The translations under genes and the position numbers were made by a program. From the human T2T-CHM13v2.0 reference genome, Homo sapiens, in NCBI RefSeq assembly GCF_009914755.1, contig NC_060939.1: 64,000 nucleotides of DNA, one strand, 5' to 3'. The notes below the pieces were generated by a model. That model made no database searches and had not been told where the DNA came from. It saw only the letters and a program-made list of their open reading frames with translations. This document shows, in pieces, positions 7,290 to 39,600 of this stretch (position 1 is the first letter of the stretch; every line of letters begins with the position of its first letter).

Positions 7290-9830
<2,541 letters not shown>

Positions 9831-10136: not shown

Positions 10137-10933
10137 GTTCGTTACTACGTTTGTACTATGCCAATGTTGATTATTATGATCTCTGTCTTAGGACTGCATG
10201 GCAGCAAGGGGATTGCGGATCTTATATTAATATTTTTGTATTGAGGCAGTGCATTAGCATTACAGGTGCTTGTTACATGAGCAATGGGGGTGTCATATTT
10301 TGGGTGTCATGTCTGCATTAGGAATGCTGCATTTGTCTTCCGAGGCTGCGGTGTGGATCTCGCACTGCAGCCGCTTCGGCTTGGCTGGGGAGAACCTCGG
10401 TGGGCGGGATTCAGAGGGGCTTTTGGTTTCCCTTTTCCACACTGAGCCCTTCTAACTGGTCTCTGACCCTGATTATTCAGGGCTGCAAAAGGGAAGGATT
10501 TTATTCACCGTCTATGCGGTCCCGAGTTGTCCCAAAGCGAGGCAGTGCCCCAAAGGTCTGTGCTGAGGAGAACGCTGCTCTGCCTTAGCGGTGTCCCCCG
10601 GGTCTGTGCTGAGCAGAACGCAGCTCCGCCCTCGCGGTGCCCCCGGCCCGCCTGGGTCTGTGCTGAGGAGAACACTGCTCCGCCTTCGCTGTATCTCTGA
10701 AGTCTGTGCAGAGGAGAACTCACCTCCGCCCTGGCGATGCTCTCCTTGTCTGTGCTGGGAAGAACGCAGCTCTGCCCTCGCAAAGGCGCACAGCGCCGGC
10801 GCAGGCGCAGAGAGGCCTACAGCGCTGGCGAAAGGCGCAGAGAGGCCCACAGCGCCGGCGCAGGCGCAGAGAGGCCCACAGCGCCGGCGCAGGCGCAGAG
10901 AGGCCCACAGCGCCGGCGCAGGCGCAGAGAGGC
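10137..10933. repeat. TAR1 telomere-associated repeat including 61-bp and 29-bp tandem repeats
   Basis: gcattagcattacaggtgcttgttacatgagcaatggggg...; 61-bp-type units tctgtgctgaggagaacgc[a/t]gctccgccct at ~10550-10780; about 5 copies of the 29-mer ggcgcaggcgcagagaggcccacagcgcc at ~10785-10933. Confidence 0.9.
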
Positions 10934-12466
10934 AGAAGGCCCATGAGGGGAAGGTGAGACACCTGGGGCAAAGAAGAAAAAAAAATGCGCCGCGAAGCGG
11001 TGTCTGGGTCATCCAGGGACGAAAGTTTTTTCCCATCAGCCCTTGCGCTGGGCCCCAGGGACCCTGGCATCCCTGGTTCACGCCCGGGTGTGCCTCAGGC
11101 GACTAGGCGTACCCCAACTTGGACAGAAGGCCCATGAGTGGAAGTTGAAGTTTGTGGGAGGAGAGGTGAGGCACCAGGGGCAGAATAAAAAAAAAAAAGA
11201 GGACCGTGTCTCAGAGAAGCGGGACCTGGGTCCCCCACGGATGAAAGTGCCTTCCCATCAGGCCCTATGCTGGGCCTGGTAGACCCTGGCGACCCTGGTT
11301 CGAGCCCAGGGTGAGCCTCGGGTCAGCTTGGGGTACCACAAAGCGAACAAAAGGTCCATGAGGGGAAGGTGAGGCACCTGAGGCAGAGAAAAAAAAACGC
11401 TCAGCCGAGAAGCAGTGCCTGGGCCCCCCACGGATGAAAGTGCCATCCCATCAGCCCCTTCGCTGGGCCCTGGGGACCCTGGCATCCCTGGTTTGACCCT
11501 GGGATACGCCTCGGGACAGTAGGGGTACCCCAAGGTGGGCAGAAAGCCCCTAAGGGGAAGGTGAGGCACCTGGGGCAGAGAATAAAAAGAAAAACTTCGC
11601 CGCGGAGAAGCACGGCCTGGGTGCCCCACAGACGAAAGTGTCTTCCCATCAGTCCCTGCACTGGGACCCAGGGACCCTGGTGTCCCTCGTTCGAGCTCAG
11701 GGTGTGCCTCGGCCGCCAAGTGCACCCCAAGGGGGACTTTGGGGACACAAAGCCCGTGAGGGGAAGGTGAGTTTTGAGGAAGGAGAGGTGAGGCACCTGT
11801 CACAGAAAAAGAAAAAAAAAACCCCGCCGCAGAGAGGTGTGGCCTGGGTACCCCACGGATGAAAGTGCCTTCCCATCAGCCCCTGCACTGGGCCCCGTGG
11901 AACCTAGAGTCCCTGGTTCGAGCTCAGGGAGAGCCTCGGGCCACTAGGGGTACCCCAAGGCGGTGGAAAGCCCATGAGAGGAAGGTGAGCTGTGAGGGAG
12001 GAGAGGTGAGACACTTGTGGCAGAAAAGAAAAAGAAACCGCGCCACGGAGAAGTGGGGCCTGGGTCTCCCATGGAAAGAAAGTGCCTTCCCATCAGTCCC
12101 TGAGCTGGGCCCCATGGGCCCAGGCGACCCTGGTTCTAGGCCTGGGTGCACCTCGGGGCCACTAGGTGTACCCCAAAGCGGGCAGAAGGCCCATGAGGGG
12201 AAGGTGAGGTTTGAGGGAAGAGAGGTGAGGCACCTGCGGCAGAAAAAAAAAAAAACATGCGGAAAAGAAGCGGGGGCTGGGTCTCCCACGGACGAAAGTG
12301 CCTTCTCATCAGCCCCTGCGCTGGGCCCCCTGGACTCTGGCGACCCTAGTTCAAGGACCAGAAGAGACTCCGGCATCCTAGGGTACCCTAAGAAAGCCAG
12401 AAAGCCCATGAGGGGAAGGCGAGATTTAAGGGAGGAGAGGTGAGTCACCTGTGGCAGAAAAAAAAG

Positions 12467-12536
<70 letters not shown>

Positions 12537-14226
12537 GCACCTCGGAGAAGCCGGGCCTGGGTCCCCACTGATGAAAGTGCCTTCCCATCAGCCCCTGCGC
12601 TAGCCCCGAGAACCTGGCGACCCTGATTGGAGACCCAGGAGCGCCTCGGGCCTGCTCGTGGTACCCCAAATCAGGCAGAAGGCCAGTGAGGGGAAGGTGA
12701 GGCACCAGGGGTGGAGAAAAAAAACCACAGCTTTGAGAAGCGGGGGCTGGGTACCCACGGATGAAGGTAACTTCCCATCAGACCCTGCGCTAGGCCCCGG
12801 CGACCCTGGCATCCATGGTTCGAGTCCAGGGAGCGCCTTGGGCCGCTAGGGGTACCCCAAGTTGAGCAGAAAGCCCATGATGGGAAGTTGACGTTTGAGG
12901 GAGGAGAGGTGAGGAACCTGTGGCAGAAAAAAAAAGAAAACAAGCCGCGCCGAGGAGAAGCTGGGCCTGGGTCCCCCAAGGATGAAAATGCCTTCCCATC
13001 AGTCCCTGCGCTGGGCCCTGTGGACCCTGGAGACCCCGGTTCGAGCCCCTGGTGCGCCTCGGGCCCGCTAGGGGTACCACAAGGCGGGCAGAAATCCCAT
13101 GAGGGGCAGTTGAGGTTTGAGGAAGGAGAGGTGAGGCACCTGTGACAGAAAAAAACAACTGCACCACGAAGAAGCGGAGCCTGGGTCCCCAACGGATGAA
13201 AGTGTCTTCCCATCAGCCCTTGCGCTGGGCCCAGGGGACCCTGGCATTCCTGGTTCGAGACCAGGGTGAGCTTCAGGCCGCTAGGGGTACCCAAAAGCGG
13301 GCAGAAGGCCCATGAGGGGAAGGTGACACACCTGGGGCAGAGAGAAAAAAAAACAACAACCGTGCCGCGGATAAGCGGGGCCTGGGTCCCCCACAGAAGA
13401 AACTGTCTTCCCATCAGCACTTGCACTGTGCCCCGGGGACACTGGTATCCCTGGCTCGAGCCCAGCATGCGCCTCGGCCTGCTAGGGGTAACCCAAGACA
13501 GACAGAAGGCCCATGAGGGAAAGGTGAGACACCTGGGGCAGAGAAGAAAATAAAAAACTGCGCCGCCCAGAAGTGGGGCCTGGGTCCCCCATGGACGAAC
13601 GTCCCTACCCATAAGCCCTGCACTGGGCCCCGGATACCCTAGCATCCCTGGCTCAAAACAAGGGTGCGCCTCGGGCCGGCTAGGGGTACATCAAGGCGAG
13701 CAGAAAGCACATGACGGGAAAGAGAGGCACCTGGGGAAAAGAAAAAAAAAAAAAAAACGCCACAGAGAAGCAGAGCCTTGGTCCCCGAGGAAGAACGTGT
13801 CTCCCATCAGCCACTGTGCTTGGCCCAGCAGAACCTGGCTTCCATGGTTGGAGCCTAGGGTGTGCCTCGGGCCGCTAGGGGTACAACAAAGCGTGCAGAA
13901 GGCACAACAGGGGAAGGAGAGGCACATGGGGCAGAGAAAAAAAAATCCCTGCCGCGGAGAAGCGGGGACTGCGTCCTAAACACGGACGAAAGTGTCTTCC
14001 CATCAGACCTTGCGCTGGGCCTCAGGGACCCTGGAGTCTCTGGTTCGAGCCCACAGTGCACCTCGGACCGCTAGGTGTAACCCAAGGCAGACAGAAGGCC
14101 CATGAGGGGAAGGTGAGATTTGAGGAAGGAGAGGTGAGGCAACTATAGCAGGAAAAAAAAAAACCGCGCCACGGAGAAGCAGGGCATGAGTCCCCCACAG
14201 ACGAAAGTGCCTTCCCATCAGGCCCT
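10930..14226. repeat. GC-rich gamma-satellite array (GSATII-like), about 16 monomers of ~190-220 bp
   Basis: Recurring gcagaaggcccatgaggggaaggtgaggcacctggggcaga(A)n...gcctgggtcccccacggatgaaagtgccttcccatcagcccctgcgctgggccc; the cccatcag anchor recurs about every 200 bp from 11032 to 14214. Confidence 0.8.
12481..12534. repeat. (AT)n microsatellite grown from a satellite poly-A tract
   Basis: Poly-A followed by about 27 AT dinucleotides. Confidence 0.95.
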
Positions 14227-14602
14227 GAGGGTTTGAGACAGAATGAGGAGTGACTAATGTCTACAGGGTTTTTCTCTGGTCGGGGGTGATAAGACGTTCT
14301 ACAATGGATTGCGAATTAAAATTGAATGTGCACAACCACAGGTATACTAAAAGCCACTCAATTCATGACTGTTAATGGGGGAATCTTATGTGGCGCAGTC
14401 TCATGGAGACCACGGCAGACATAGTGAGAGAGAAAAAGGTGAGTAAATATCTGAAACGGAGGCAGAAACAGAGAGAATGAAAAGCCCTGTGAATGGAAGG
14501 GAGAGCGAAAAGGGAAAATGGTCCCATTTACAAATGACAGATGTGAAACTGGGGTTCACATCAACAGTGTCACTGCCAGGAAGGAGGGTCATGCTAGCCA
14601 TG

Positions 14603-17440
14603 TCACCGGTGGTGTGGCCCGCAGGGACGCCGACCTGCTGGAGCGTCGTGCCAGCATGGGCTGTGGCATCCACGTGGGCCAGCAGGAGGTTCCCGCTGCA
14701 CAGCTGTGGGGTGAGGATAGACTGGTTGGTGATATCGGCCATTACAAGGGCCTCTTCTGCTGGCAAGAGTGTGACAGTAGCAAGTAGATGGACAGGCCTG
14801 CGTGTGAGGACGGAATGCAGGAGGGGTTCTTGTGCGGCTGTGTGTGGGGCCCTCACGGGAACCGTGGAGAAATGGCCAGGTAACTGCGTCATGTGGGCTA
14901 GTAGATTGGCCAGGGCTTCGAACTGAAGAACGATAACGGGGAGTAGCTGTCAGGCCCTGGGAGTGCCTGCGTGTAAGTGGAGATGGGTTTGGGGTCACTG
15001 AGGGATGCGTGGGAGCCATCTCTGTATAGGTACAGGTCATAGGGAGATAGTCTCGTGAGGCCTGTGAGTGTCTAGGGTTGTCCTGGGTGCCTGGGGCTGA
15101 CTGTGGCAGAAATCTGGGGAAGGCTGGAGAGAAGCTGGGAGACCCAGGAGAGTCCCTGAAGGCAGGGGGTGAAGAGGTGAAAGAAATGGGGGAGGGTTGC
15201 AGTAAGGTCCGTGAGTTTGTAGGTGATTCCTGGGTGCGGGAAGCTGACTCCAGGTGAAATCTGGAGATGGTTGGAGAGTAGCTGAGAGAGACAGAAGAGT
15301 CCCTGAGGGCTGGGGGTGAGAACATGAGGGAGACGGGGGAGTAAGTCAGTGAAATTCGTGAGTTCGGTGGTGTATCGTGGGTGCCTGGAACTGACTCCAG
15401 CTGGAATCTAGAGAAGTTTTGAGAGTAGCTGAAGGAGACACAAGAGTCCCTGTGGGCTGAGGGCAAAGACCTGAGAGAGACCAGGGAGGACCTCAGTGAA
15501 GTCTGTGAGTCTGTAGGTGATTCCGGAGTGTGGGAGGCTGACTCCCGCTGAAATCTGGGCGTGGTGGGAGAGTAGCTGGGACAGACAGGAGAGTCCCAGG
15601 GGGCTGGGGGTGAAGACATGAGAGAGACTGGGGAGTAACTCAGTGAAATTGCTGAGTTGGTTGGTGATACCTGGGTGCCTGGAACTGACCCCCGCTGAAA
15701 TCTGGGCATGGTTGGAGAGTAGCTGGGACACACAGGAGAGTCCCTGAGGGCTGTGGGTGAAGACATGAGAGAGACCGGGGAGTAACTGAGTGAAACTGGT
15801 GAGTTTCGTGGTGACTCCGGGGTGCCTGGAACCGACTCCCGCTGAAGTGTGGGCGTGGTTGGAGAGTAGCTGGGACACACAGGAGAGTCCCTGAGGGTTG
15901 GAGATAAAGACGTGCTAGAGACTGAGGAGTAACTGAGTGAAATTGGTGAGTTTGGTGGTGATTCCGGGGTGCCTGGAACGGACTCCAGCTTAAATGTGGG
16001 CGTAGTTGGAGAGTAGCTGGGACAGACAGGCGAGTCCCTGAGGGATGGTGAAGACATGAGAGAGACTGGGGAGTAACGCAGTGAAATTGGTGAGTTTGGT
16101 GGTGATTTCTGGGTGCCTGCAACGGACTCCCGCTGAAGTGTGGGCGTGTTTGGAGAGTAGCTGGGACAGACAGGCGAGTCCCTGAGAGTTAGAGATAAAG
16201 ACGTGCTGGAGACTGGGGAGTAACTCAGTGAAATTGGTGGGCTTGGCGGTGATCCCAGCGTTCCTAGAACAGACCCGCGCTGAAATGTGGGCGTGGTTGG
16301 AGAGTAGCTGGGACAGACTGGAGGGTCCGTAAGGGCTGGGGGTGAAGACGTGAGAGAGACTGGCGAGGATCTCACTGAGGTCTGTGAGTTTGTAGGTGTT
16401 TCTGGGGTGTGGGGTACAGACTCCCGCTGAAATCTGGGCGTAGTTGGAGAGTAGCTGGGACAGACAGGAGAGTCATGGGTGGCTGGGGGTGAGCTGCTGG
16501 ATGATGGCAGTAAGAACATATGGTACATTATTGATGAATGAGGTGACTGTGAAGAATCTCCAGAGGAGGACACGGGAGAACACAATGACATGAGTGACTG
16601 TCCTGCTTGGTTAGGAAAGGGAAACGTAAAGTTGTGGAATTCTGTTGATGATGGATGTGAGAGTGGTGAAGCCATGCGGGATGATGTAGAGGACTTCCAC
16701 ATCCCTGGTGAGGAGCTGCCCCTTGGGTCTGAGTTTCTGGGAGGGGAGAGGGAGACGCTGGGTGAGGCAGGCATGAATCTTGAGGAGTCAAGGCTGGGGG
16801 ACGGCTCATATTCTCCCGAGACCTGTGAGTCTCTGGGGGACTCCTGGGTGCATGGGACTGACTCCCGCAGGAACCTGGGGATGGCTGGAGGGTAACTGGG
16901 AGCCACAGGAGGGTCCCTGAGGCCTGGGGGTGAAGAGATGCAAGACACAGGGGTGGAGCAGCGTGAGGCTCGTGAGTTTGTAGGTGATTCCTGGGTGTGG
17001 GGGGCTGACTCCAGGTGAAATCTGAGGTTGTTTGGAGAGTAACTGGGAGACACAGGAGACCCCCCGAGAGCTGGGGGTGATCTGCTGGGTGATGGCATTA
17101 AGAACATGTGGTATATTATTGATGAACGTGGGGACTCTGAGGAATCCTCAGAGGAGGACACGGGAGAGCCCAATGGCTTCATTGATTGCCCATCACGGTG
17201 AGGACAGGGAAATGGGAGCTTGTGGGATTCTGGTGATGACAGAGGTGAGTGTGGTGAAGCCCTAGGGGCTGGTGAATGGCAGCTCCAGATCCCTGGTGAG
17301 GAGCTTCCCCTTAAGCCTGAGTTTCTGAGAGGGGAGAGGGAGAAGCTGGTTGAGGCTCGCATGGACCTTGGGGTGTCCGTGCTGGGGGACCGTTCATAAG
17401 AAGAGCCAGACAAGACCCTACTGTTCTTAGGTGCAGACAT
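14603..17440 (-). CDS. Putative 945-aa Ser/Pro/Thr-rich disordered protein with Pol II CTD-like heptads (copy 1, most diverged)
   Basis: Uninterrupted ATG-to-stop ORF; A at -3 (taatcATG); upstream TATA/Inr; 49-aa repeats. Confidence 0.5.
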   Translation of the reverse strand: MSAPKNSRVLSGSSYERSPSTDTPRSMRASTSFSLSPLRNSGLRGSSSPGIWSCHSPAPRASPHSPLSSPESHKLPFPCPHRDGQSMKPLGSPVSSSEDSSESPRSSIIYHMFLMPSPSRSPPALGGSPVSPSYSPNNLRFHLESAPHTQESPTNSRASRCSTPVSCISSPPGLRDPPVAPSYPPAIPRFLRESVPCTQESPRDSQVSGEYEPSPSLDSSRFMPASPSVSLSPPRNSDPRGSSSPGMWKSSTSSRMASPLSHPSSTEFHNFTFPFPNQAGQSLMSLCSPVSSSGDSSQSPHSSIMYHMFLLPSSSSSPPATHDSPVCPSYSPTTPRFQRESVPHTPETPTNSQTSVRSSPVSLTSSPPALTDPPVCPSYSPTTPTFQRGSVLGTLGSPPSPPISLSYSPVSSTSLSLTLRDSPVCPSYSPNTPTLQRESVAGTQKSPPNSPISLRYSPVSLMSSPSLRDSPVCPSYSPTTPTFKLESVPGTPESPPNSPISLSYSSVSSTSLSPTLRDSPVCPSYSPTTPTLQRESVPGTPESPRNSPVSLSYSPVSLMSSPTALRDSPVCPSYSPTMPRFQRGSVPGTQVSPTNSAISLSYSPVSLMSSPPAPWDSPVCPSYSPTTPRFQRESASHTPESPTDSQTSLRSSLVSLRSLPSAHRDSCVSFSYSQNFSRFQLESVPGTHDTPPNSRISLTYSPVSLMFSPPALRDSSVSLSYSPTISRFHLESASRTQESPTNSRTLLQPSPISFTSSPPAFRDSPGSPSFSPAFPRFLPQSAPGTQDNPRHSQASRDYLPMTCTYTEMAPTHPSVTPNPSPLTRRHSQGLTATPRYRSSVRSPGQSTSPHDAVTWPFLHGSREGPTHSRTRTPPAFRPHTQACPSTCYCHTLASRRGPCNGRYHQPVYPHPTAVQREPPAGPRGCHSPCWHDAPAGRRPCGPHHR
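15050..17400. repeat. 147/144-bp satellite (ACRO1-like) in unit 1; equivalent arrays lie within every unit's ORF
   Basis: ggagagtagctgggacagacaggagagtccctgaggg...gtgaagacatgagagagactggggagtaact recurs every 144-147 bp; 147 bp is the known ACRO1 monomer length. Confidence 0.8.
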
Positions 17441-17501
17441 GATTAGGAAACCTGCAGCTCCCAGGGGCCCCCACTAATGTTCTAACTTGCAGAAGGAAGG
17501 A

Positions 17502-17515
17502 GTGTGTGTGCGTGT

Positions 17516-17550
<35 letters not shown>

Positions 17551-17626
17551 CGGTGTGAGGTATGGGCCCCTTAAGGAAATGGAAATCAACCAACCAATGG
17601 GACAGACAGACAGACAGACAGACAGA
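17502..17626. repeat. (GT/GC)n dinucleotide and (GACA)n tetranucleotide repeats in the putative 5' leader (every unit, variable length)
   Basis: gtgtgtgtgcgtgtgtgcg... at ~17502-17550 and gacagacaga... at ~17601-17626. Confidence 0.9.
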
Positions 17627-17747
17627 GATTCACTTGCCCAAGTGTTCTGTCCTGTCCTCTGAATCCGCTTTCAAGTCGCAAGACGCTGTGAGCTCCAAGT
17701 CCACGCAGAGTCCGCCAAACGCTCCGGCCGCTGATCCGCTCCGCGAA

Positions 17748-17820
17748 GATCTGAGTACAGGCCAGCCAGGGTGGGTTTAAATAGCCTGGGGCGCAGCCTA
17801 GAAGCGGAAAGGGCGGAGCT
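17748..17820 (-). promoter_or_regulatory. Candidate Pol II core promoter: GC box, TATA (TATTTAAA) and Inr (TCAGATC)
   Basis: Plus strand gggcggag 17811-17818, tttaaata 17776-17783, gatctga 17748-17754; TATA start lies 31 nt upstream of the Inr A (17752); repeated in each unit. Confidence 0.6.
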
Positions 17821-18280
17821 TCACTCCTCCTTTCCATCATTCACCCCCAACTTTCCCAGGCTACACCTCGTAGGAAACTGTTCTCCTGCTTTGATTTCAT
17901 GCGCCACCTTTGGGACAATCTAAGAACTTACAGGTTTTCTTGGCCAGATTTATTAGGAATTGTATGCACTGAAACACTGAAAACCAACTAGTGGTTCTGT
18001 GCTTCCCACGTTGTGGTTTTGACACCAGCAGCATCCTTGCCACAATCAAACCCCGGAGATCCGCAGATCTGTGTTGTAACAAGACCTCCCCCTGACCCTG
18101 ATGCATGGCAGTTGAAGAAGTCTTTCCGTGTAAGCGAAAAGACTTTGAAGAAAAGGTGGAGATATGCGTTGTATAAACATTCTTTGGCTCTGGAACCACG
18201 TAGAGACTTGGGAGCCAGTTGGGTGGAGCATTCGTTGGATGAGGGTGCTCGGGTTAGGAATATCAAGGTGTTTCTCCAGA

Positions 18281-18291
18281 TAATCCAATCA
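18281..18291 (+). promoter_or_regulatory. DUX4/double-homeobox consensus site TAATCCAATCA
   Basis: Exact match to TAAYYYAATCA ~530 bp upstream of the predicted TSS; also at 24579, 31210, 37539, 44164, 50496, 57045 and 63641. Confidence 0.55.
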
Positions 18292-23837: not shown

Positions 23838-26800
23838 TTGTGTGTGTGCGGTGTGAGGTATGGGCCCCTTAAGGAAATGGAAATCAACCAACCAATGGGA
23901 CAGACAGACAGACAGACAGACAGAGATTCACTTGCCCAAGTGTTCTGTCCTGTCCTCTGAATCCGCTTCCAAGTCGCAAGACGCTGTGAGCTCCAAGTCC
24001 ACGCAGAGTCCGCCAAACGCTGCGGCCGCTGATCCGCTCCGCCAAGATCTGAGTACAGGCCAGCCAGGGTGGGTTTAAATAGCCTCGGGCGCAGCCTAGC
24101 AGCGGAAAGGGCGGAGCTTCACTCCTCCTTTCCATCAGTCACCCCCAACTTTCCCAGGCTACACCTCGTAGGAAACTGTTCTCCTGCTTTGATTTCATGC
24201 GCCACCTTTGGGACAATCTAAGAACTTACAGGTTTTCTTGGCCAGATTTATTAGGAATTGTATGCACTGAAACACTGAAAACCAACTAGTGGTTCTGTGC
24301 TTCCCACGTTGTGGTTTTGACACCAGCAGCATCCTTGCCACAATCAAACCCCGGAGATCCGCAGATCTGTGTTGTAACAAGACCTCCCCCTGACCCTGAA
24401 GCGTGGCAGTTGAAGAAGTCTTTCCGTGTACGCGAAAAGACTTTGAAGAAAAGGTGGAGATATGCGTTGTATAAACATTCTTTTGCTCTGGAACCACGTA
24501 GAGACTTGGGAGCCAGTTGGGTGGAGCATTCGTTGGATGAGGGTGCTCGGGTTAGGAATATCAAGGTGTTTCTCCAGATAATCCAATCATCTAATTAAGA
24601 TTCCAGTTATGCTCATCTGTTTTAAAATTCCGTTTGGGTAAATTCTTTTAGTCAGACTGAGAATGGCAAAGCCTCAACCCCAATTTCCAGGGAGGGTGGA
24701 GAGCCTCAGGTGGAGTTGATCACCAATAGCCTATGGTTTAACCCATCATGCCTATAGAATGAGGTCTCCATCAAAACCCAAAAGGACTGGGTTCAGAGAG
24801 CTTCTGGATAACACTTCCTGGAAGGTAGTGCGCCCCTCCCCGCATGGCGGGCCCCACATTTATTTCTGAACTTTGTGCAATGTCCGCTAAAATACAACGG
24901 CAAATGTAAGTGTTTCCCTGCGTGCTGTGAGCTCTTCCAGCAAATGAATGCAACTAAATCTGGGAGTGGTGGCAACCTGATTTATAGCCAGTTGCTGAGA
25001 AGCACAGGTAAAACAACGTAGGGCTTCCCATTGTTATTGGTGTGGGAGGCCTGTCTGGCGGGACTCGGCCCTTTGGAATCTAATGCTATGTCCCGGTAGA
25101 TAGCGTCACCATTGAATTAGAAGACACACATATGTGGAGAATAATCTTTCTGGTCATTTAGTGCATGTCATATTTACAATATGTAATCAAATTCTTTATC
25201 CTGACCTCATGGCACCTGGGTTTAGGACCATGATTTGAACCAAACGTTGGTCTGTCACTTTCTGAGTTTGAAACTTTATTTTGCCTTTAGCGTTTTGCTA
25301 TTGCTTTTTCGTTTTCTTTTGTTTCGTTTCGTTTCTAAGTTCTGGGGTATATGTGCAGGATGTGCAGATTTGTTACTAAGGTAAACGTGTGCCATTTTTG
25401 TTTGCTGCACCTGTCAACCCGTCACCTAGGTATTAAGCCCAGCATGCAGTAGCTGTTTTTCTTAACGCTCTGCCTCCCGAAAGGCCCCAGTGTGTGTTGT
25501 TCCCCTTCCTGTGTCCATGGGATCTCACTTTTCAGCTCCCATTATAAGTGAGAAGGTGGCGTTTGGTTTTCTTTCCCTGGATTAGTTTGCTGACGATAAT
25601 GACCACACATCACCACTGTTTTTGTTTTTTAGTATAAAGAGTAGTATTTTATTGAATAAGATTTGCTCACAGAAAAATAAGTTTAAATCTACAATGAATG
25701 CCAGACCCTACAGCAGAAAGCAATTTTCTCACTTTTCCACACACAATGGTTCCTACTAAGTGAAAAAAAAGCCATAAAATTTCATTCACAAATGTACTAC
25801 TCTGTCTCAAAACATCTCACGTAATCATGCACTGTACTAAAGCCATCAGATCAGTTCTTCAGTCAGGTTAAAGAAGTATCCCTCTAATAACTGACTCTTA
25901 TAATGCTATCAATATGCACTCCCAATCAGTCTGCCATTGTTAATGGTGTACAGCATTACTGAATACAACGGAATTGATGACGCCCATATCCACAGACAAA
26001 CCGTGACTTATGATGGTTTGATTTATGATTTTTCAACGTTATGATGGGTTTATTGGAATATTAGATTCGTTTCTGAGTTACACTGGGTTTATGAGTATGC
26101 GACCCTACACTCCAGAAACAGCTGTATAAGGAAAAACAGGTGTACCTAATAAAAATATGCTTAGTGACTTGGGATAAACCAATAGATGTTCACAAGTGAT
26201 GGAGAGCCGTGAAAGAGAGATAGCGGTAAATAGTTACAATAACACAATTTTCCTGCACCTGTCGAGGATTTCCCCCAAAAAACGCAGAATGTGGGATGCA
26301 CCTAAGGCATATGAAAGACAGAGGGCAGAAGGAGTAAGAGAGAAATAGGAGGAAGGAAGGAAGGAAGCAAGGAAGAAAGGAAGGAAGGAAAGAAGGAAGG
26401 TAGGACGGACGGAAGGAAGGAAGGAAGGAAGGAAGGAAGGAAGGAAAGAAGGAAGGAAGGAAGGAAGGAAAGAAGGATGAAAGGAAGGAGAAAACACCGG
26501 TGTTACTAAAACCCCCCAAAAAATGGTTTCCCCCTGTGGGTAAGCCTACAATGTGGATGAATCTTGAAAATATTGTGCTACGTGTTATGTCAGTCATAGC
26601 AGCTCACCTATTGTGCAATTCCGTTTATAGGAAATGTCCACAATATGGAAATCTATGCATATGGGATTGATCGCACTAGGTAGTTGCTACCTAGGGCTGA
26701 GGGTCAGGGAGAGGGTTTGAGACAGAATGAGGAGTGACTAATGTCTACAGGGTCTTTCTCTGGTCGGGGGTGATAAGACGTTTTACAATGGATTGCGAAT

Positions 26801-27086
26801 TAAAATTGAATGTGCACAACCACAGGTATACTAAAAGCCACTCAATTCATGACCTTTAATGGGGGAATCTTACGTGGCGTAGTCTCATGGAGACCACGGC
26901 AGACATAGTGAGAGAGAAAAAGGTGAGTAAATATCTGAAACGGAGGCAGAAACAGAGAGAATGAAAAGCCCTGTGAATGGAAGGGAGAGCGAAAAGGGAA
27001 AATGGTCCTATTTACAAATGACAGATGTGAAACTGGGGTTCACATCAACAGTGTCACTGCCAGGAAGGAGGGTCATGCTAGCCATG

Positions 27087-30000
27087 TCACCGGTAGTGTG
27101 GCCCGCAGGGACGCCGACCTGCTGGAGCGTCGTGCCAGCATGGGCTGTGGCAACCACGTGGGCCAGCAGGAGGTTCCCGCTGCACAGCTGTGGGGTGAGG
27201 ATAGACTGGGTGGTGATATCGGCCATTACAGGGGCCTCTTCTGCTGGCAAGAGTGTGACAGTAGCAAGTAGATGGACAGGCCTGCGTGTGAGGACGGAAT
27301 GCAGGAGGGGTTCTTGTGCGCCTGGGTGTGGGGCCCTCACGGGAACCGTGGAGAAATGGCCAGGTAACTGCGTCATGTGGGCTAGTAGATTGGCCAGGGC
27401 TTCGAACTGAAGGACGATAATGGGGAGTAGCTGTCAGGCCCTGGGAGTGCCTGAGTGTAAGTGGAGATGGGTTTGGGGTCACTGAGGGATGCGTGGGAGC
27501 CATCCCTGTATAGGTACAGGTCATAGGGAGATAGTCTCGTGAGGCCTGTGAGTGTCTAGGGTTGTCCTGGGTGCCTGGGGCTGACTGTGGCAGAAATCTG
27601 GGGAAGGCTGGAGAGAAGCTGGGAGACCCAGGAGAGTCCCTGAAGGCAGGGGGTGAAGAGGTGAAAGAAATGGGGGAGGGTTGCAGTAAGGTCCGTGAGT
27701 TTGTAGGTGATTCCTGGGTGCGGGAAGCTGACTCCAGGTGAAATCTGGAGATGGTTGGAGAGTAGCTGAGAGAGACAGAAGAGTCCCTGAGGGCTGGGGG
27801 TGAGAACATGAGGGAGACGGGGGAGTAAGTCAGTGAAATTCGTGAGTTCGGTGGTGTATCGTGGGTGCCTGGAACTGACTCCAGCTGGAATCTAGAGAAG
27901 TTTTGAGAGTAGCTGAAGGAGACACAAGAGTCCCTGTGGGCTGAGGGCAAAGACCTGAGAGAGACCAGGGAGGACCTCAGTGAAGTCTGTGAGTCTGTAG
28001 GTGATTCCGGAGTGTGGGAGGCTGACTCCCGCTGAAATCTGGGCGTGGTGGGAGAGTAGCTGGGACAGACAGGAGAGTCCCAGGGGGCTGGGGGTGAAGA
28101 CATGAGAGAGACTGGGGAGTAACTCAGTGAAATTGCTGAGTTGGTTGGTGATACCTGGGTGCCTGGAACTGACCCCCGCTGAAATCTGGGCATAGTTGGA
28201 GAGTAGCTGGGACACACAGGAGAGTCCCTGAGGGCTGGGGGTGAAGACATGAGCGAGACCGGGGAGTAACTGAGTGAAACTGGTGAGTTTGGTGGTGACT
28301 CCGGGGTGCCTGGAACTGACTCCAGCTGAAATGTGGGCGTGGTTGGAGAGTAGCTGGGACAGACAGGAGAGTCCCTGAGGACTGGTGAAGACATGAGAGA
28401 GAGTGGAGAGTAATTGAGTGAAATTGGTGAGTTTAGTGGTGATTCCTGGGTGCCTGGAACTGACTCCCGCTGAAGTGTGGGCGTGGTTGGAGAGTAGCTG
28501 GGACACACAGGAGAGTCCCTGAGGGTTGGAGATAAAGACGTGCTAGAGACTGAGGAGTAACTGAGTGAAATTGGTGAGTTTGGTGGTGATTCCGGGGTGC
28601 CTGGAACGGACTCCAGCTGAAATGTGGGCGTGGTTGGAGAGTAGCTGGGACAGACGGGAGAGTCCCTGAGGGATGGTGAAGACATGAGAGAGACTGGGGA
28701 GTAACGCAGTGAAATTGGTGAGTTTGGTGGTGATTTCTGGGTGCCTGCAACGGACTCCCGCTGAAGTGTGGGCGTGCTTGGAGAGTAGCTGGGACAGACA
28801 GGCGAGTCCCTGAGGGTTGGAGATAAAGACGTGCTAGAGACTGAGGAGTAACTGAGTGAAATTGGTGAGTTTGGTGGTGATTCCGGGGTGCCTGGAACGG
28901 ACTCCAGCTGAAATGTGGGCGTGGTTGGAGAGTAGCTGGGACAGACGGGAGAGTCCCTGAGGGATGGTGAAGACATGAGAGAGACTGGGGAGTAACGCAG
29001 TGAAATTGGTGAGTTTGGTGGTGATTTCTGGGTGCCTGCAACGGACTCCCGCTGAAGTGTGGGCGTGCTTGGAGAGTAGCTGGGACAGACAGGCGAGTCC
29101 CTGAGGGTTGGAGATAAATACGTGCTGGAGACTGGGGAGTAACTCAGTGAAAGTGGTGGGCTTGGTGGTGATCCCAGGGTTCCTGGAACTGACCCGCGCT
29201 GAAATGTGGGCGTGGTTGGAGAGTAGCTGGGACAGACTGGAGGGTCCGTAAGGGCTGGGGGTGAAGACGTGAGAGAGACTGGCGAGGATCTCACTGAGGT
29301 CTGTGAGTTTGTAGGTGTTTCTGGGGTGTGGGGTACAGACTCCCGCTGAAATCTGGGCGTAGTTGGAGAGTAGCTGGGACAGACAGGAGAGTCATGGGTG
29401 GCTGGGGGTGAGCTGCTGGATGATGGCAGTAAGAACATATGGTACATTATTGATGAATGAGGTGACTGTGAAGAATCTCCAGATGAGGACACGGGAGAAC
29501 ACAATGACATGAGTGACTGTCCTGCTTGGTTAGGAAAGGGAAACGTAAAGTTGTGGAATTCTGTTGATGATGGATGTGAGAGTGGTGAAGCCCTGCGGGA
29601 TGATGTAGAGGACTTCCACATCCCTGGTGAGGAGCTGCCCCTTGGGTCTGAGTTTCTGGGAGGGGAGAGGGAGAAGCTGGGTGAGGCAGGCATGAATCTT
29701 GAGGAGTCAGGGCTGGGGGACCGCTCATATTCTCCCGAGACCTGTGAGTCTCTGGTGGACTCCTGGGTGCATGGGGCTGGCTCCCGCAGGAACCTGGGGA
29801 TGGCTGGAGAGTAACTGGGAGCCACAGGAGGGTCCCTGAGGCCTGGGGGTGAAGAGATGCAAGACACAGGGGTGGAGCAGCGTGAGGCTCGTGAGTTTGT
29901 AGGTGATTCCTGGGTGTGGGGGGCTGACTCCAGCTGAAATCTGGGGTTGTTTGGAGAGTAGCTGGGAGACACAGGAGACCCCCCGAGAGCTGGGGGTGAG

Positions 30001-30359
30001 CTGCTGGGTGATGGCAGTAAGAACATGTGGTATATTATTGATGAACGTGGGGACTCTGAGGAGTCCTCAGAGGAGGACACGGCAGAGCCCAATGGCTTCA
30101 TTGATTGCCCATCACGGTGAGGACAGGGAAATGGGAGCTTGTGGGATTCTGGTGATGACAGAGGTGAGTGTGGTGAAGCCCTAGGGGATGGTGAATGGTA
30201 GTTCCGGATCCCTGGTGAGGAGCTTCCCCTTAAGCCTGAGTTTCTGAGAGGGGAGAGGGAGAAGCTGGGTGAGGCTCGCATGGACCTTGGGGTGTCCGTG
30301 CTGGGGGACCGTTCATAAGAAGAGCCAGACAAGACCCTACTGTTCTTAGGTGCAGACAT
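27087..30359 (-). CDS. Putative 1090-aa CTD-like heptad-repeat protein (copy 3)
   Basis: Intact ORF; in-frame +291 bp (two monomers) relative to copy 2. Confidence 0.55.
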   Translation of the reverse strand: MSAPKNSRVLSGSSYERSPSTDTPRSMRASPSFSLSPLRNSGLRGSSSPGIRNYHSPSPRASPHSPLSSPESHKLPFPCPHRDGQSMKPLGSAVSSSEDSSESPRSSIIYHMFLLPSPSSSPPALGGSPVSPSYSPNNPRFQLESAPHTQESPTNSRASRCSTPVSCISSPPGLRDPPVAPSYSPAIPRFLREPAPCTQESTRDSQVSGEYERSPSPDSSRFMPASPSFSLSPPRNSDPRGSSSPGMWKSSTSSRRASPLSHPSSTEFHNFTFPFPNQAGQSLMSLCSPVSSSGDSSQSPHSSIMYHMFLLPSSSSSPPATHDSPVCPSYSPTTPRFQRESVPHTPETPTNSQTSVRSSPVSLTSSPPALTDPPVCPSYSPTTPTFQRGSVPGTLGSPPSPPLSLSYSPVSSTYLSPTLRDSPVCPSYSPSTPTLQRESVAGTQKSPPNSPISLRYSPVSLMSSPSLRDSPVCPSYSPTTPTFQLESVPGTPESPPNSPISLSYSSVSSTSLSPTLRDSPVCPSYSPSTPTLQRESVAGTQKSPPNSPISLRYSPVSLMSSPSLRDSPVCPSYSPTTPTFQLESVPGTPESPPNSPISLSYSSVSSTSLSPTLRDSPVCPSYSPTTPTLQRESVPGTQESPLNSPISLNYSPLSLMSSPVLRDSPVCPSYSPTTPTFQLESVPGTPESPPNSPVSLSYSPVSLMSSPPALRDSPVCPSYSPTMPRFQRGSVPGTQVSPTNSAISLSYSPVSLMSSPPAPWDSPVCPSYSPTTPRFQRESASHTPESPTDSQTSLRSSLVSLRSLPSAHRDSCVSFSYSQNFSRFQLESVPGTHDTPPNSRISLTYSPVSLMFSPPALRDSSVSLSYSPTISRFHLESASRTQESPTNSRTLLQPSPISFTSSPPAFRDSPGSPSFSPAFPRFLPQSAPGTQDNPRHSQASRDYLPMTCTYTGMAPTHPSVTPNPSPLTLRHSQGLTATPHYRPSVRSPGQSTSPHDAVTWPFLHGSREGPTPRRTRTPPAFRPHTQACPSTCYCHTLASRRGPCNGRYHHPVYPHPTAVQREPPAGPRGCHSPCWHDAPAGRRPCGPHYR

Positions 30360-36695: not shown

Positions 36696-39600
36696 GATTA
36701 GGAAACCTGCAGCTCCCAGGGGCCCCTACTAATGTTCTAACTCGAAGAAGGAAGGAGTGTGTGTGCGTGTGTGCGTGTGCGTGTGTGTGTGTGTGTGCTT
36801 GTGTGTGTGCGGTGTGAGGTATGTGCCCCTTAAGAAAATGGAAATCAACCAACCAATGAGACAGAGAGACAGACAGACAGACAGAGATTCACTTGCCCAA
36901 GTGTTCTGTCCTGTCCTCTGAATCCGCTTCCAAGTCGCAAGACGCTGTGAGCTCCAAGTCCACGCAGAGTCCGCCAAACGCTGCGGCCGCTGATCCGCTC
37001 CGCGAAGATCTGAGTACAGGCCAGCCAGGGTGGGTTTAGATAGCCTCGGGCGCAGCCTAGCAGCGGAAAGGGCGGAGCTTCACTCCTCCTTTCCATCAGT
37101 CACCCCCAACTTTCCCAGGCTACACCTCGTAGGAAACTGTTCTCCTGCTTTGATTTCATGCGCCACCTTTGGGACAATCTAAGAACTTACAGGTTTTCTT
37201 GGCCAGATTTATTAGGAATTGTATGCACTGAAACACTGAAAACCAACTAGTGGTTCTGTGCTTCCCACGTTGTGGTTTGACACCAGCAGCATCCTTGCCA
37301 CAATCAAACCCCGGAGATCCGCAGATCTGTGTTGTAACAAGACCTCCCCCTGACCCTGAAGCGTGGCAGTTGAAGAAGTCTTTCCGTGTAAGCGAAAAGA
37401 CTTTGAAGAAAAGGTGGAGATATGCGTTGTATAAACATTCTTTTGCTCTGGAACCACGTAGAGACTTGGGAGCCAGTTGGGTGGAGCATTCGTTGTATGA
37501 GGGTGCTCGGGTTAGGAATATCAAGGTGTGGCTCCAGATAATCCAATCATCTAATTAAGATTCCAGTTATGCTCATCTGTTTTAAAATTCCGTTTGGGTA
37601 AATTCTTTTAGTCAGACTGAGAATGGCAAAGCCTCAACCCCAATTTCCAGGGAGGGTGGAGAGCCTCAGGTGGAGTTGATCACCAATAGCCTATGGTTTA
37701 ACCCATCATGCCTATAGAATGAGGTCTCCATCAAAACCCAAAAGGACTGGGTTCAGAGAGCTTCTGGATAACACTTCCTGGAAGGTAGTGCACCCCTCCC
37801 CGCATGCCGGGCCCCACATTTATTTCTGAACTTTGTGCAATGTCCGCTAAAATACAACGGCAAATGTAAGTGTTTCCCTGCGTGCTGTGAGCTCTTCCAG
37901 CAAATGAATGCAACTAAATCTGGGAGTGGTGGCAACCTGATTTATAGCCAGTTGCTGAGAAGCACAGGTAAAACAACGTAGGGCTTCCCATTGTTATTGG
38001 TGTGGGAGGCCTGTCTGGCGGGACTCGGCCCTTTGGAATCTAATGCTATGTCCCGGTAGATAGCGTCACCATTGAATTAGAAGACACACATATGTGGAGA
38101 ATAATCTTTCTGGTCATTTAGTGCATGTCATATTTACAATATGTAATCAAATTCTTTATCCTGACCTCATGGCACCTGGGTTTAGGACCATGATTTGAAC
38201 CAAACGTTGGTCTGTCACTTTCTGAGTTTGAAACTTTATTTTGCCTTTAGCGTTTTGCTATTGCTTTTTCGTTTTCTTTTGTTTCGTTTCGTTTCTAAGT
38301 TCTGGGGTATATGTGCAGGATGTGCAGATTTGTTACTAAGGTAAACGTGTGCCATTTTTGTTTGCTGCACCTGTCAACCCGTCACCTAGGTATTAAGCCC
38401 AGCATGCAGTAGCTGTTTTTCTTAACGCTCTGCCTCCCGAAAGGCCCCAGTGTGTGTTGTTCCCCTTCCTGTGTCCATGGGATCTCACTTTTCAGCTCCC
38501 ATTATAAGTGAGAAGGTGGCGTTTGGTTTTCTTTCCCTGGATTAGTTTGCTGACGATAATGACCACACATCACCACTGTTTTTGTTTTTTAGTATAAAGA
38601 GTAGTATTTTATTGAATAAGATTTGCTCACAGAAAAATAAGCTTAAATCTACAATGAATGCCAGACCCTACAGCAGAAAGCAATTTTCTCACTTTTCCAC
38701 ACACAATGGTTCCTACTAAGTGAAAAAAAAGCCATAAAATTTCATTCACAAATGTACTACTCTGTCTCAAAACATCTCACGTAATCATGCACTGTACTAA
38801 AGCCATCAGATCAGTTCTTCAGTCAGGTTAAAGAAGTATCCCTCTAATAACTGACTCTTATAATGCTATCAATATGCACTCCCAATCAGTCTGCCATTGT
38901 TAATGGTGTACAGCATTACTGAATACAACGGAATTGATGACGCCCATATCCACAGACAAACCGTGACTTATGATGGTTTGATTTATGATTTTTCAACGTT
39001 ATGATGGGTTTATTGGAATATTAGATTCGTTTCTGAGTTACACTGGGTTTATGAGTATGCGACCCTACACTCCAGAAACAGCTGTATAAGGAAAAACAGG
39101 TGTACCTAATAAAAATATGCTTAGTGACTTGGGATAAACCAATAGATGTTCACAAGTGATGGAGAGCCGTGAAAGAGAGATAGCGGTAAATAGTTACAAT
39201 AACACAATTTTCCTGCACCTGTCGAGGATTTCCCCCAAAAAACGCAGAATGTGGGATGCACCTAAGGCATATGAAAGACAGAGGGCAGAAGGAGTAAGAG
39301 AGAAATAGGAGGAAGGAAGGAAGGAAGCAAGGAAGAAAGGAAGGAAGGAAAGAAGGAAGGTAGGACGGACGGAAGGAAGGAAGGAAGGAAGGAAGGAAGG
39401 AAAGAAGGAAGGAAGGAAGGAAGGAAAGAAGGATGAAAGGAAGGAGAAAACACCGGTGTTACTAAAACCCCCCAAAAAATGGTTTCCCCCTGTGGGTAAG
39501 CCTACAATGTGGATGAATCTTGAAAATATTGTGCTACGTGTTATGTCAGTCATAGCAGCTCACCTATTGTGCAATTCCGTTTATAGGAAATGTCCACAAT

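What the first reader, a model, noticed from the sequence alone, without database searches (positions are those of the whole stretch)
17441..17820. Canonically spaced GC box-TATA-Inr promoter and ATG-free leader pointing into the ORF
Seen on the minus strand: GC box (17811-17818), TATTTAAA (17783-17776), and Inr consensus TCAGATC with its A 31 nt downstream of the TATA start (17752). The region is locally CpG-rich. The ~310-nt leader has no ATG before the ORF start, which has A at -3. The same arrangement occurs in the other units (TATA at 24074, 30705, 43659, 56540, 63136). Inference: each unit is an autonomous transcription unit, independent evidence that the ORF is a gene.
Basis: partly seen in the sequence, partly recalled or inferred. 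Interest (0 to 1): 0.8.

Follow-up and report, generated by a model that had tools for sequence, protein, structure and literature searches.

The report
Promoter inside each ACRO satellite unit
Every copy of a known 6.5-kb repeat on the short arm of human chromosome 15 carries a textbook-looking gene start signal aimed at a long open reading frame, which probably explains where this repeat's known early-embryo RNA begins, though no transcription data could be checked here.

Summary
On the minus strand, CCGCCC (17816-17811), TATTTAAA (17783-17776) and TCAGATC (A at 17752, 31 nt from the TATA start) precede a 312-nt ATG-free leader and an ATG with A at -3. All 8 of 8 units have the block; 2 of 8 read TATCTAAA. 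Shuffles never reproduce it (0 of 20,000).

The unit is the known ACRO composite repeat (ACRO_Comp/ACRE: ACRO1 satellite plus TE fragments). [quoted passage not shown] One perfect DUX4-type motif lies 539 bp upstream of the predicted start in 8 of 8 units. I read this as the unit's core promoter, confidence 0.6; the start site itself is untested.

As evidence that the ORF is a gene it is weak, because eight copies are one observation. The ORF has separate mixed support: it is frame-specifically open, and a collinear marmoset protein model starts at the same methionine. However, substitutions among human copies look neutral, and 10 of 18 units sampled elsewhere are truncated.

No held paper that I found describes this promoter.

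The parts
18281..18291 (+). Perfect DUX4-type double-homeobox motif TAATCCAATCA, 539 bp upstream of the predicted start, next to a TAATTA
   Evidence: 8 matches in the window, one per unit, against 0.38 expected by chance for the whole window. Searches give the position as -539. The consensus TAAYBBAATCA is recalled, not taken from a call.
17811..17818 (-). GC box CTCCGCCC (CCGCCC at -64)
   Evidence: It is the only GGGCGG/CCGCCC in -700..+60.
17776..17783 (-). TATA-like box TATTTAAA, from -31 to -24
   Evidence: Equivalent boxes start at 24081, 30712, 43666, 56547 and 63143. The variant TATCTAAA starts at 37042 and 49998.
17748..17754 (-). Initiator TCAGATC; predicted +1 is the A at 17752
   Evidence: It is identical in 8 of 8 units. 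No DPE or BREu match was found.
17552..17852 (.). Small CpG-rich patch around the predicted start (-100..+200)
   Evidence: 14 CpG, GC 0.56, o/e 0.61, against unit o/e 0.43; the peak window of the unit.
17441..17752 (-). 312-nt ATG-free leader holding a (CTGT)n run (about 17601-17626) and a (CA)n run (about 17502-17556)
   Evidence: Its length varies from 312 to 322 nt among window units because of the microsatellites.
14603..17440 (-). 945-aa Ser/Pro-rich ORF made largely of 49-aa (147-bp ACRO1) repeats; the ATG has A at -3
   Evidence: The other units carry ORFs of 993, 1090, 993, 1090, 993, 1047 and 1090 aa.
26855..26860 (-). ATTAAA candidate poly(A) signal 227 nt after the stop of the ORF 27087-30359
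   Evidence: present in 7 of 8 window units. The first unit reads ATTAAC.
25285..26340 (-). L1-type 3' end in sense orientation, ending in AATAAA and an A-rich tail; taken to be the L1PA10 piece of the composite
   Evidence: One search shows the sequence; the resemblance to an L1PA 3' end is recalled. First-look candidates were 2820 and 3058 for queries covering it, against 233 for the promoter query.
24600..25270 (-). Segment at -550..-1220 that behaves as an interspersed repeat; possibly the MER21B piece, with TATAAAT at -937 and AATAAA at -814
   Evidence: 1274 first-look candidates, against 233 for -550..+310. Searches show the sequence. The family name comes from print and was not tested here.

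Best explanation
The block is the core promoter of the ACRO composite repeat unit (ACRO_Comp, also called ACRE or 6kbHsap+ACRO1).

Proposed mechanism:
- TBP/TFIID would bind TATTTAAA and the initiator, and Pol II would start at or within a few bases of the A at 17752 and its equivalents.
- A proximal Sp/KLF-type GC box and a small CpG-rich patch assist.
- The promoter is silent in ordinary cells. It is switched on in cleavage-stage embryos and in DUX4-expressing cells, most simply through the perfect DUX4-type site 539 bp upstream.
- The transcript runs in the sense direction through a 312-322-nt ATG-free leader into the ACRO1 array. It probably ends at ATTAAA about 230 nt past the stop codon.

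What is shown: the motifs, their spacing, their presence in every unit and in 226 places in the genome, and the rarity of the combination by chance.

What is taken from print: ACRO1 RNA peaks at the 4-cell stage and rises after DUX4 expression.

What is inferred: that this promoter is the source of that RNA, and that DUX4 acts through the -539 site.

Whether the RNA is translated is open; I put it at about 40%.
For: Motifs and spacing. They are present in 8 of 8 units.

Specificity: these are the only TATA+Inr pairs inside the units on either strand.

Chance: TATA+Inr+GC box occurred in 0 of 20,000 shuffles.

Leader and CpG:
- The ATG-free stretch runs from -82 to the start codon in 8 of 8 units.
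- The CpG maximum of the unit is centred on the predicted start.

DUX4-type motif: one per unit, 8 of 8, against 0.38 expected per window. It is kept in 16 of 18 units fetched from other arrays, and one of the two misses is an array edge.

Genome-wide: the 39-nt TATA-to-Inr core occurs 226 times with up to 3 mismatches and 167 times exactly, on chromosomes 1, 3, 4, 13, 14, 15 and 21 in the rows listed. The 126 and 67 unlisted rows may add others; the DNA search also found units on chromosome 22.

Print (passages read):
- ACRO1 peaks at the 4-cell stage (PMC6545021).
- DUX4 raises ACRO1 transcripts (PMC8990217; PMC11467316; 10.64898/2025.12.22.696056).
- ACRO1 has among the lowest methylation of the satellites in FSHD-model cells.

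Transcript ends: a candidate poly(A) signal follows the ORF, and an L1 poly(A) signal lies ahead of the next promoter.
Against: - No 5'-end, nascent-RNA, ChIP or methylation data could be examined here.
- Boots et al. found no stable ACRO1 transcripts in HeLa cells. The T2T repeat preprint reports low PRO-seq signal on satellites in general.
- The TATA is not the canonical TATAAA, and 2 of 8 units carry TATCTAAA.
- There is no BREu or DPE.
- No extra conservation could be shown. Segments flanking the core differ among arrays by about 3.4-4.3%, like the rest of the region (my sums). The exact-match rate of the core (167 of 226) lies inside the range of other 39-mers in my sample of 23 units (0.09-0.80 by window). 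That sample was chosen on a perfect core, so the comparison is rough.
- A single DUX4-type motif in a 6.5-kb unit has a chance expectation of about 0.04, which is suggestive only.
- According to Boots et al., ACRO1 sense RNA blocks Pol II elongation in cis. Even an active promoter might therefore give little full-length RNA.
Confidence: 0.6

Rival explanations
1. The promoter-like block is inert. The ACRO1 RNA seen in embryos and DUX4-expressing cells starts elsewhere. Candidate starts are near the DUX4-type site, the LTR-like TATAAAT at -937 inside the interspersed-repeat segment, or read-through from neighbouring units or flanks.
For: - DUX4 is reported to create start sites at the repeats it binds (introduction passage).
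- The segment at -550..-1220 behaves as an interspersed repeat (1274 against 233 candidates). It has a TATAAAT followed 123 nt later by AATAAA, an LTR-like layout.
- No start-site data support 17752.
Against: - A start upstream of -85 would put several ATGs ahead of the ORF, whereas the stretch from -82 onwards has none.
- The TATAAAT at -937 has no initiator at the right distance.
- The CpG peak sits on the TATA/Inr block, not upstream.
- The AATAAA at -814 and the L1 poly(A) signal further upstream would tend to end transcripts before the ORF.
Confidence: 0.2
2. It is a fossil. The promoter and ORF of a once-active primate gene were captured in the repeat unit and are now carried along by array homogenisation with no present function.
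For: - Substitutions among human copies fit neutrality. In the N-terminal 400 codons there are 150 synonymous, 360 non-synonymous and 20 stop changes, against 144, 364 and 22 expected.
- Among intact copies only, the counts are 27 synonymous and 73 non-synonymous, with changes spread evenly over codon positions.
- 10 of 18 units from other arrays have ORFs cut to 27-716 aa.
- The promoter's flanks are no better conserved than the rest.
Against: - ACRO1 RNA is reported in embryos and after DUX4 expression.
- The frame has 0 stops in 1090 codons, against 13 and 18 in the other sense frames and 28 +/- 5 in shuffles.
- A marmoset protein model of 832 aa is collinear from the same Met to the same C-terminal region. 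This is hard to keep for about 40 million years (recalled) without selection against stops.
- dN/dS between the two internal 196-aa blocks is 0.57, against 1.47 and 0.95 in the other frames.
Confidence: 0.12
3. Chance: an AT-rich octamer, a loose initiator match and a GC hexamer happen to lie upstream of a composition-driven open frame.
For: - The motifs are short and degenerate.
- The patterns were defined after the site was seen.
- The eight copies are not independent.
- The other frames of the ACRO1 repeats are also fairly open (6 and 3 stops in 600 codons).
Against: - 0 of 20,000 shuffles give the trio, and 13 of 20,000 give TATA plus Inr.
- Only these sites in the units pair a TATA-like box with an initiator.
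- The block coincides with the CpG peak, the ATG-free stretch and the first ATG of the longest ORF.
Confidence: 0.05

Closest known systems
ACRO composite repeat (ACRO_Comp; 'ACRE' of Boots et al. 2020; 6kbHsap + ACRO1)
   Same: This is that repeat. It has a roughly 6.3-6.6-kb unit, 147-bp ACRO1 arrays and L1 and LTR pieces, and it is arrayed on acrocentric short arms and a few other chromosomes. The resemblance of the in-silico translation to the Pol II CTD is reproduced: 12 of 12 PDB sequence hits are RPB1.
   Different: In the passages I read, the unit's own promoter, leader, start codon, full-length ORF and DUX4-type site are not described. 'Open reading frame' occurs 0 times in Boots et al., and 'promoter' there refers to reporter promoters or general background. 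One preprint calls it 'a putative protein coding gene' in passing.
D4Z4 macrosatellite with the DUX4 gene (recalled)
   Same: It is a primate tandem repeat of a few kb in which every unit holds an intronless ORF with its own promoter. It is silent in somatic cells, active at the cleavage stage, and related copies lie on acrocentric short arms.
   Different: The unit is 3.3 kb and its product is a folded double-homeodomain factor under clear constraint. Here the product, if any, is a low-complexity Ser/Pro repeat whose substitutions among human copies look neutral. ACRO would lie downstream of DUX4, not be its source.
DUX4-responsive cleavage-stage promoters (ZSCAN4, TRIM43, LEUTX; ERVL-MaLR LTR promoters; HSATII) (recalled)
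   Same: There is a consensus DUX4 motif within a few hundred bp upstream, and the reported induction of the family's RNA by DUX4 peaks at the 4-8-cell stage.
   Different: Binding and dependence on the motif are untested. The promoter segment itself has no dispersed copies (233 candidates, all of the 40 scored being ACRO units), so it does not look like a typical LTR promoter.
RNA polymerase II RPB1 C-terminal domain
   Same: The 49-aa repeat reads as seven degenerate YSPTSPS-like heptads. RPB1 CTDs are the only PDB sequence matches. NCBI models in marmoset, baboon and red colobus are named 'RPB1' or 'RPB1-like'.
   Different: There is no polymerase body. The match is low-complexity and has a high composition bias. 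Common descent from POLR2A is not shown.

Membership tests
TATA + Inr Pol II core promoter | TATA-like box about 31 to 24 nt upstream of the start | tested here: met
   TATTTAAA runs from -31 to -24 in 6 of 8 units and TATCTAAA in 2 of 8. It is a non-canonical variant of TATAWAWR (consensus recalled).
TATA + Inr Pol II core promoter | Initiator YYANWYY at the start site, with correct spacing to the TATA | tested here: met
   TCAGATC has its A 31 nt from the first T of the TATA in 8 of 8 units.
TATA + Inr Pol II core promoter | Transcripts actually start there | not testable with these tools
CpG-island promoter | At least 200 bp with GC at least 0.5 and CpG o/e at least 0.6 (criteria recalled) | tested here: inconclusive
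   Over -100..+200: GC 0.56-0.57 and o/e 0.59-0.65 in the 8 units. One 200-nt window reaches 0.83. This is borderline and very short.
DUX4 target | Consensus DUX4 motif near the promoter | tested here: met
   TAATCCAATCA lies at -539 in 8 of 8 units and in 16 of 18 other loci. The consensus is recalled.
DUX4 target | DUX4 occupancy and DUX4-dependent RNA from this unit | not testable with these tools
   Print reports induction of 'ACRO1' as a repeat class. No locus, strand or start site is given in the passages read.
LTR-derived promoter (MER21B) | The promoter lies inside the LTR annotation | tested here: inconclusive
   No repeat library was available. The -550..+310 query has 233 first-look candidates, while -550..-1220 has 1274. 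This suggests the interspersed repeat lies upstream of the promoter. Old LTR copies may escape the first look.
Protein-coding gene | Open frame kept across copies and species | tested here: inconclusive
   8 of 8 window units have ORFs of 945-1090 aa. Of 18 units from other arrays, 7 have at least 896 aa, 10 have 27-716 aa and 1 was not scored. A marmoset model of 832 aa is collinear, and baboon and colobus models of 282 and 291 aa start at the same Met.
Protein-coding gene | Fewer amino-acid-changing than silent substitutions | tested here: inconclusive
   The internal blocks give dN/dS 0.57, against 1.47 and 0.95 in the other frames. Among human copies the counts match neutrality.
Protein-coding gene | Evidence of translation | not testable with these tools
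   No ribosome-profiling or peptide data are available. Pfam gave 0 families.

The most novel reading that the evidence does not exclude
The roughly 230 ACRO units form a primate-specific, multi-copy, DUX4-driven gene family on the acrocentric short arms. Each unit would be an autonomous TATA/Inr gene that, for a short time at human embryonic genome activation, makes a 950-1090-aa protein. That protein is built of 49-aa blocks of seven Pol II CTD-like heptads. It could act as a CTD mimic, for example a decoy or scaffold for CTD kinases, phosphatases and condensates near the nucleolus. Its own sense RNA would meanwhile throttle elongation. Selection would act on keeping the frame open and on composition, not on individual residues.
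Probability: 0.2. Interest if true: 0.85.

Novelty: new member of a known kind. Interest (0 to 1): 0.55.

Why it matters
ACRO is reported as the repeat most specific to ape acrocentric short arms, and its RNA is one of the satellite transcripts that mark human cleavage stages and DUX4 activity. Until complete assemblies appeared, reads could not be placed on it.

A defined start site, leader, ORF and upstream DUX4-type motif turn a vague repeat-class signal into a gene-like model with exact coordinates. That model can be tested on existing 5'-end, ChIP, ribosome-profiling and methylation data.

If the ORF is translated, humans carry a few hundred copies of a Pol II CTD-like gene that no annotation of this window lists. 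If it is not, the promoter still explains how a satellite is switched on at genome activation and in FSHD-model cells.

Tried and rejected
- Pfam on the ORF found nothing.
- Pfam on 31 six-frame pieces of the spacer gave only sub-threshold hits. One was a homeodomain-like stretch at E 0.052. With 31 queries that is expected by chance, so I did not build on it.
- I tried to place MER21B. No repeat library is held, so I used first-look candidate counts of own-genome searches as a proxy. This separates young or abundant repeats from unit-specific DNA but cannot name families.
- My first idea, that the promoter is the MER21B LTR's own promoter, lost support. The promoter segment shows no dispersed copies.
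I did not ask again, so ORF and promoter integrity rest on 18 units. These were picked at sites with a perfect core, which makes them a biased sample.
- The test for extra conservation of the core against other 39-mers was left rough.
- The supplement of Boots et al., which has a map of the unit's TE pieces, was listed but not opened. bioRxiv supplements are closed. Both may bear on where MER21B lies and on the gene model mentioned in PMC12746033.
- Searches for a printed description of the promoter found none. The terms were 6kbHsap; ACRO1+acrocentric; ACRO1+DUX4; acrocomp; ACRO1+8-cell; ACRO1+open reading frame; acrocentric+DUX4+T2T-CHM13+embryo+satellite; ACRO1+TATA. Subscription papers such as Hendrickson et al. 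2017 are outside that library.

Full report
**1. What is in the sequence**

- CTCCGCCC lies at 17818-17811.
- TATTTAAA lies at 17783-17776.
- TCAGATC lies at 17754-17748. Its A at 17752 is 31 nt from the first T of the TATA.
- A 312-nt leader without any ATG follows.
- ATG lies at 17440 in the context CTAATCATGT, so A is at -3.

The ATG opens a 945-aa ORF, 14603-17440.

The window holds eight tandem units, not six. All eight have the block.
- TATA starts are 17783, 24081, 30712, 37042, 43666, 49998, 56547 and 63143.

Leaders are 312-322 nt and ATG-free in 8 of 8 units. The ATG-free stretch starts at -82, because the last upstream ATG is at -85 in 8 of 8 units.

**2. Is it more than chance?**

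- With a relaxed TATA definition there are 102 TATA-like 7-mers on both strands of the 64-kb window. Only nine have an initiator 27-34 nt downstream: the eight unit promoters and one site at 8230.
- In 20,000 dinucleotide-preserving shuffles of the 700 nt before the ATG, a TATA-like box appeared 258 times. TATA plus initiator appeared 13 times, and TATA plus initiator plus GC box never appeared.
- Only 48 of 2000 shuffles of the leader lack ATG.
- The CpG maximum of the whole unit sits on the predicted start. The -100..+100 window has o/e 0.83. Over -100..+200 there are 14-15 CpG with o/e 0.59-0.65, against 0.40-0.43 for whole units. That is a real but small enrichment.
- Two caveats apply. 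The patterns were defined after the site was seen, and eight homogenised copies count as one observation.

**3. What the unit is**

- Tandem Repeats Finder shows 147-bp repeats filling most of each ORF.
- The literature identifies the 147-bp ACRO1 satellite inside a roughly 6-kb higher-order unit. It is named ACRE by Boots et al. 2020 (PMC7714431, passages) and ACRO_Comp by the T2T repeat preprint (10.1101/2021.07.12.451456, passages).
- A 2025-26 preprint describes it as 'ACRO1, L1PA10, MER21B and L1MB8' and as the repeat class most specific to ape acrocentrics (10.64898/2025.12.22.696095, passages).
- In the window's own genome, the 860 bases spanning -550..+310 have 233 first-look candidates. 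The 40 that were scored are all ACRO units, on chromosomes 15, 22, 21, 13 and 3.
- The 39-nt TATA-to-initiator core occurs 226 times with up to 3 mismatches and 167 times exactly. The rows listed lie on chromosomes 1, 3, 4, 13, 14, 15 and 21, and further rows were not listed.

**4. Anatomy of a unit in transcript orientation**

The order is as follows.
- Predicted start.
- Leader, containing (CTGT)n and (CA)n microsatellites.
- ORF of 2.8-3.3 kb.
- ATTAAA 227 nt after the stop, present in 7 of 8 window units.
- An antisense L1 fragment. It is recognised by a peptide resembling the end of L1 ORF2; this recognition is recalled.
- A (TCCT)n run.
- A sense-oriented L1-type 3' end closing with AATAAA and an A-rich tail at about 25285. 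This resemblance is also recalled. Queries that include it draw 2820 and 3058 candidates.
- A segment at -1220..-550 that draws 1274 candidates.
- The promoter-proximal 550 bp, which draws only the 233 ACRO copies.

The interspersed repeat that the literature calls MER21B therefore most likely lies upstream of the promoter rather than around it. That segment has a TATAAAT followed 123 nt later by AATAAA, an LTR-like layout, but no initiator at the right distance. I could not name families because no repeat library is held here.

**5. Link to known expression**

From print (passages read):
- ACRO1 expression peaks at the 4-cell stage (PMC6545021) or rises after cleavage (PMC12287470).
- DUX4 expression raises ACRO1 and HSATII transcripts (PMC8990217; PMC11467316).

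From the sequence: the recalled DUX4 consensus TAAYBBAATCA matches exactly once per unit, as TAATCCAATCA at -539. That is 8 of 8 units, against 0.38 matches expected by chance in the whole window. It lies next to a TAATTA. It is kept in 16 of 18 units fetched from other arrays, and one of the two misses is an array edge whose upstream DNA is unrelated.

For a single 6.5-kb unit the chance expectation is about 0.04, so the motif is suggestive rather than proof.

Taken together, the simplest reading is that this block is where the DUX4-induced, cleavage-stage ACRO1 RNA starts.

**6. Evidence against, or missing**

- I could examine no start-site, ChIP or methylation data.
- Boots et al. saw no stable ACRO1 RNA in HeLa cells. 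They also showed that ACRO1 sense RNA inserted in a reporter blocks Pol II elongation in cis. A promoter here may therefore give mostly short or scarce RNA.
- The TATA is non-canonical, and there is no BREu or DPE.
- I found no sign of extra conservation. Among eleven more diverged units, segments from -800 to +700 differ from the reference by about 3.2-5.5%, and the promoter flanks differ by 3.4-3.7% (my sums).
- The core's exact-match rate is 167 of 226. That lies within the range of other 39-mers in my sample. The sample was picked on a perfect core, so it is biased.
- Concerted evolution makes such tests weak in any case.

**7. Is the ORF a gene?**

The promoter does not settle this. The ORF has its own record.

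In favour:
- The frame has 0 stops in 1090 codons. The other sense frames have 13 and 18, the antisense frames 50-101, and shuffles 28 +/- 5. The contrast also holds in the non-tandem N- and C-terminal parts.
- Two internal 196-aa blocks align over 588 nt without any indel, at 75.7% identity. They give dN/dS 0.57 in the ORF frame, against 1.47 and 0.95 in the other frames.
- A marmoset protein model of 832 aa, named 'RPB1' by its source, is collinear from the same MSA.KN start to the same C-terminal region. It is 69% identical over residues 1-420.
- Baboon and red colobus models of 282 and 291 aa, named 'RPB1-like', start at the same methionine.

Against:
- Variants among human copies match neutral expectation. 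In the N-terminal 400 codons there are 150 synonymous, 360 non-synonymous and 20 stop changes, against 144, 364 and 22 expected.
- In the C-terminal 166 codons the counts are 36, 95 and 3, against 34, 94 and 5 expected.
- The same holds among intact copies only: 27 synonymous against 73 non-synonymous, with changes evenly spread over codon positions.
- Of 18 units from other arrays, 7 keep at least 896 aa, 10 are cut to 27-716 aa and 1 could not be scored.
- The other frames of the ACRO1 repeats are themselves fairly open. Frame-shifted versions stay open for long stretches, as seen in P0002 and in part of the marmoset model.
- Pfam finds nothing.

The pattern fits either a rapidly evolving, disordered, composition-constrained protein or a decaying relic.

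**8. Nature of the putative product**

- The 49-aa repeat reads as seven degenerate heptads of the YSPTSPS type.
- All 12 of 12 PDB sequence matches are RPB1 C-terminal domains, with high composition bias.
- This reproduces the in-silico observation of Boots et al..

**9. Novelty**

- Already in print: the repeat, its embryonic and DUX4-linked RNA, and the CTD-like translation. One preprint also mentions in passing 'a putative protein coding gene' in the ACRO1 array (PMC12746033).
- Not found: in eight literature searches and the passages read, I found no description of the unit's own TATA/Inr promoter, its leader, the DUX4-type motif at -539 or the full ORF model.
- In Boots et al. 'open reading frame' occurs 0 times. 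'Promoter' there refers to reporter promoters or to general background, not to a promoter of the unit.
- Subscription papers and supplements that I could not read may hold more.
- I therefore file it as a new member of a known kind: a macrosatellite unit with its own cleavage-stage promoter, closest in layout to D4Z4/DUX4.

**10. Verdict**

- The best explanation is a real, developmentally restricted core promoter of the ACRO unit, with confidence 0.6.
- Coding status is open, at about 0.4.
- Interest is 0.55.

Noticed in passing
window 20749-62798: The array has a higher-order pattern. ORF lengths run 945, 993, 1090, 993, 1090, 993, 1047, 1090 aa, so 993- and 1090-aa units alternate with a period of about 13 kb. 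The TATCTAAA variant sits in two of the three 993-aa units.
   Followed up: partly
window 24347-24586, minus strand (-300..-540 of the unit promoter): An 80-aa open piece gives a sub-threshold Pfam Homeodomain match (E 0.052, helix-3-like ...QVSTWFQSKR...). It starts at the DUX4-type motif. With 31 pieces tested this is within chance, but the segment has no dispersed copies in the genome.
   Followed up: partly
window 24860-24990, minus strand: TATAAAT at -937 and AATAAA at -814 lie inside a segment with about 1000 more genome-wide candidates than the ACRO copy number. This looks like a sense-oriented solo LTR (possibly the MER21B piece) upstream of the promoter.
   Followed up: partly
ORF of the unit 27087-30359, residues 14-209 and 210-405: The N-terminal third of the ORF is an old tandem duplication of a 196-aa block (4 x 49 aa). 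The two blocks are 75.7% identical in DNA with no indel.
   Followed up: yes
P0009 and P0014: Proteins 99% and 91% identical to the human ORF are filed under Plasmodium ovale wallikeri, as a hypothetical protein, as 'PIR Superfamily Protein' and as 'RPB1, partial'. Most likely this is human DNA in that assembly. It is in line with PMC6581058, which counts ACRO1 among the human repeat families matched in contaminated bacterial and archaeal assemblies.
   Followed up: no
L009 (G000:C14:900-7900): This is the first unit at the distal end of chromosome 14. It is an array edge, because its sequence upstream of -200 is unrelated. It has an extra ATG in the (CA)n part of the leader and a 1475-aa ORF from the usual ATG.
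   Followed up: no
window 10555-14227: Just outside the ACRO array lie other tandem repeats: periods of 100, 29 and 59 bp at 10.5-10.9 kb, and 193-227 bp at 11.2-14.2 kb. ORFs of 160-320 aa lie on both strands there. They were not examined.
   Followed up: no
window 8230, minus strand: This is the only other TATA-like box with an initiator match in the window (TATAAAA, then TTATTTT 28 nt on). It lies in AT-rich DNA outside the array.
   Followed up: no
P0004 and P0020: Short forms of the ORF exist (652 and 361 aa). They join the N-terminal part directly to the C-terminal part, lack most or all of the ACRO1 array, and end at the usual C-terminus.
   Followed up: no
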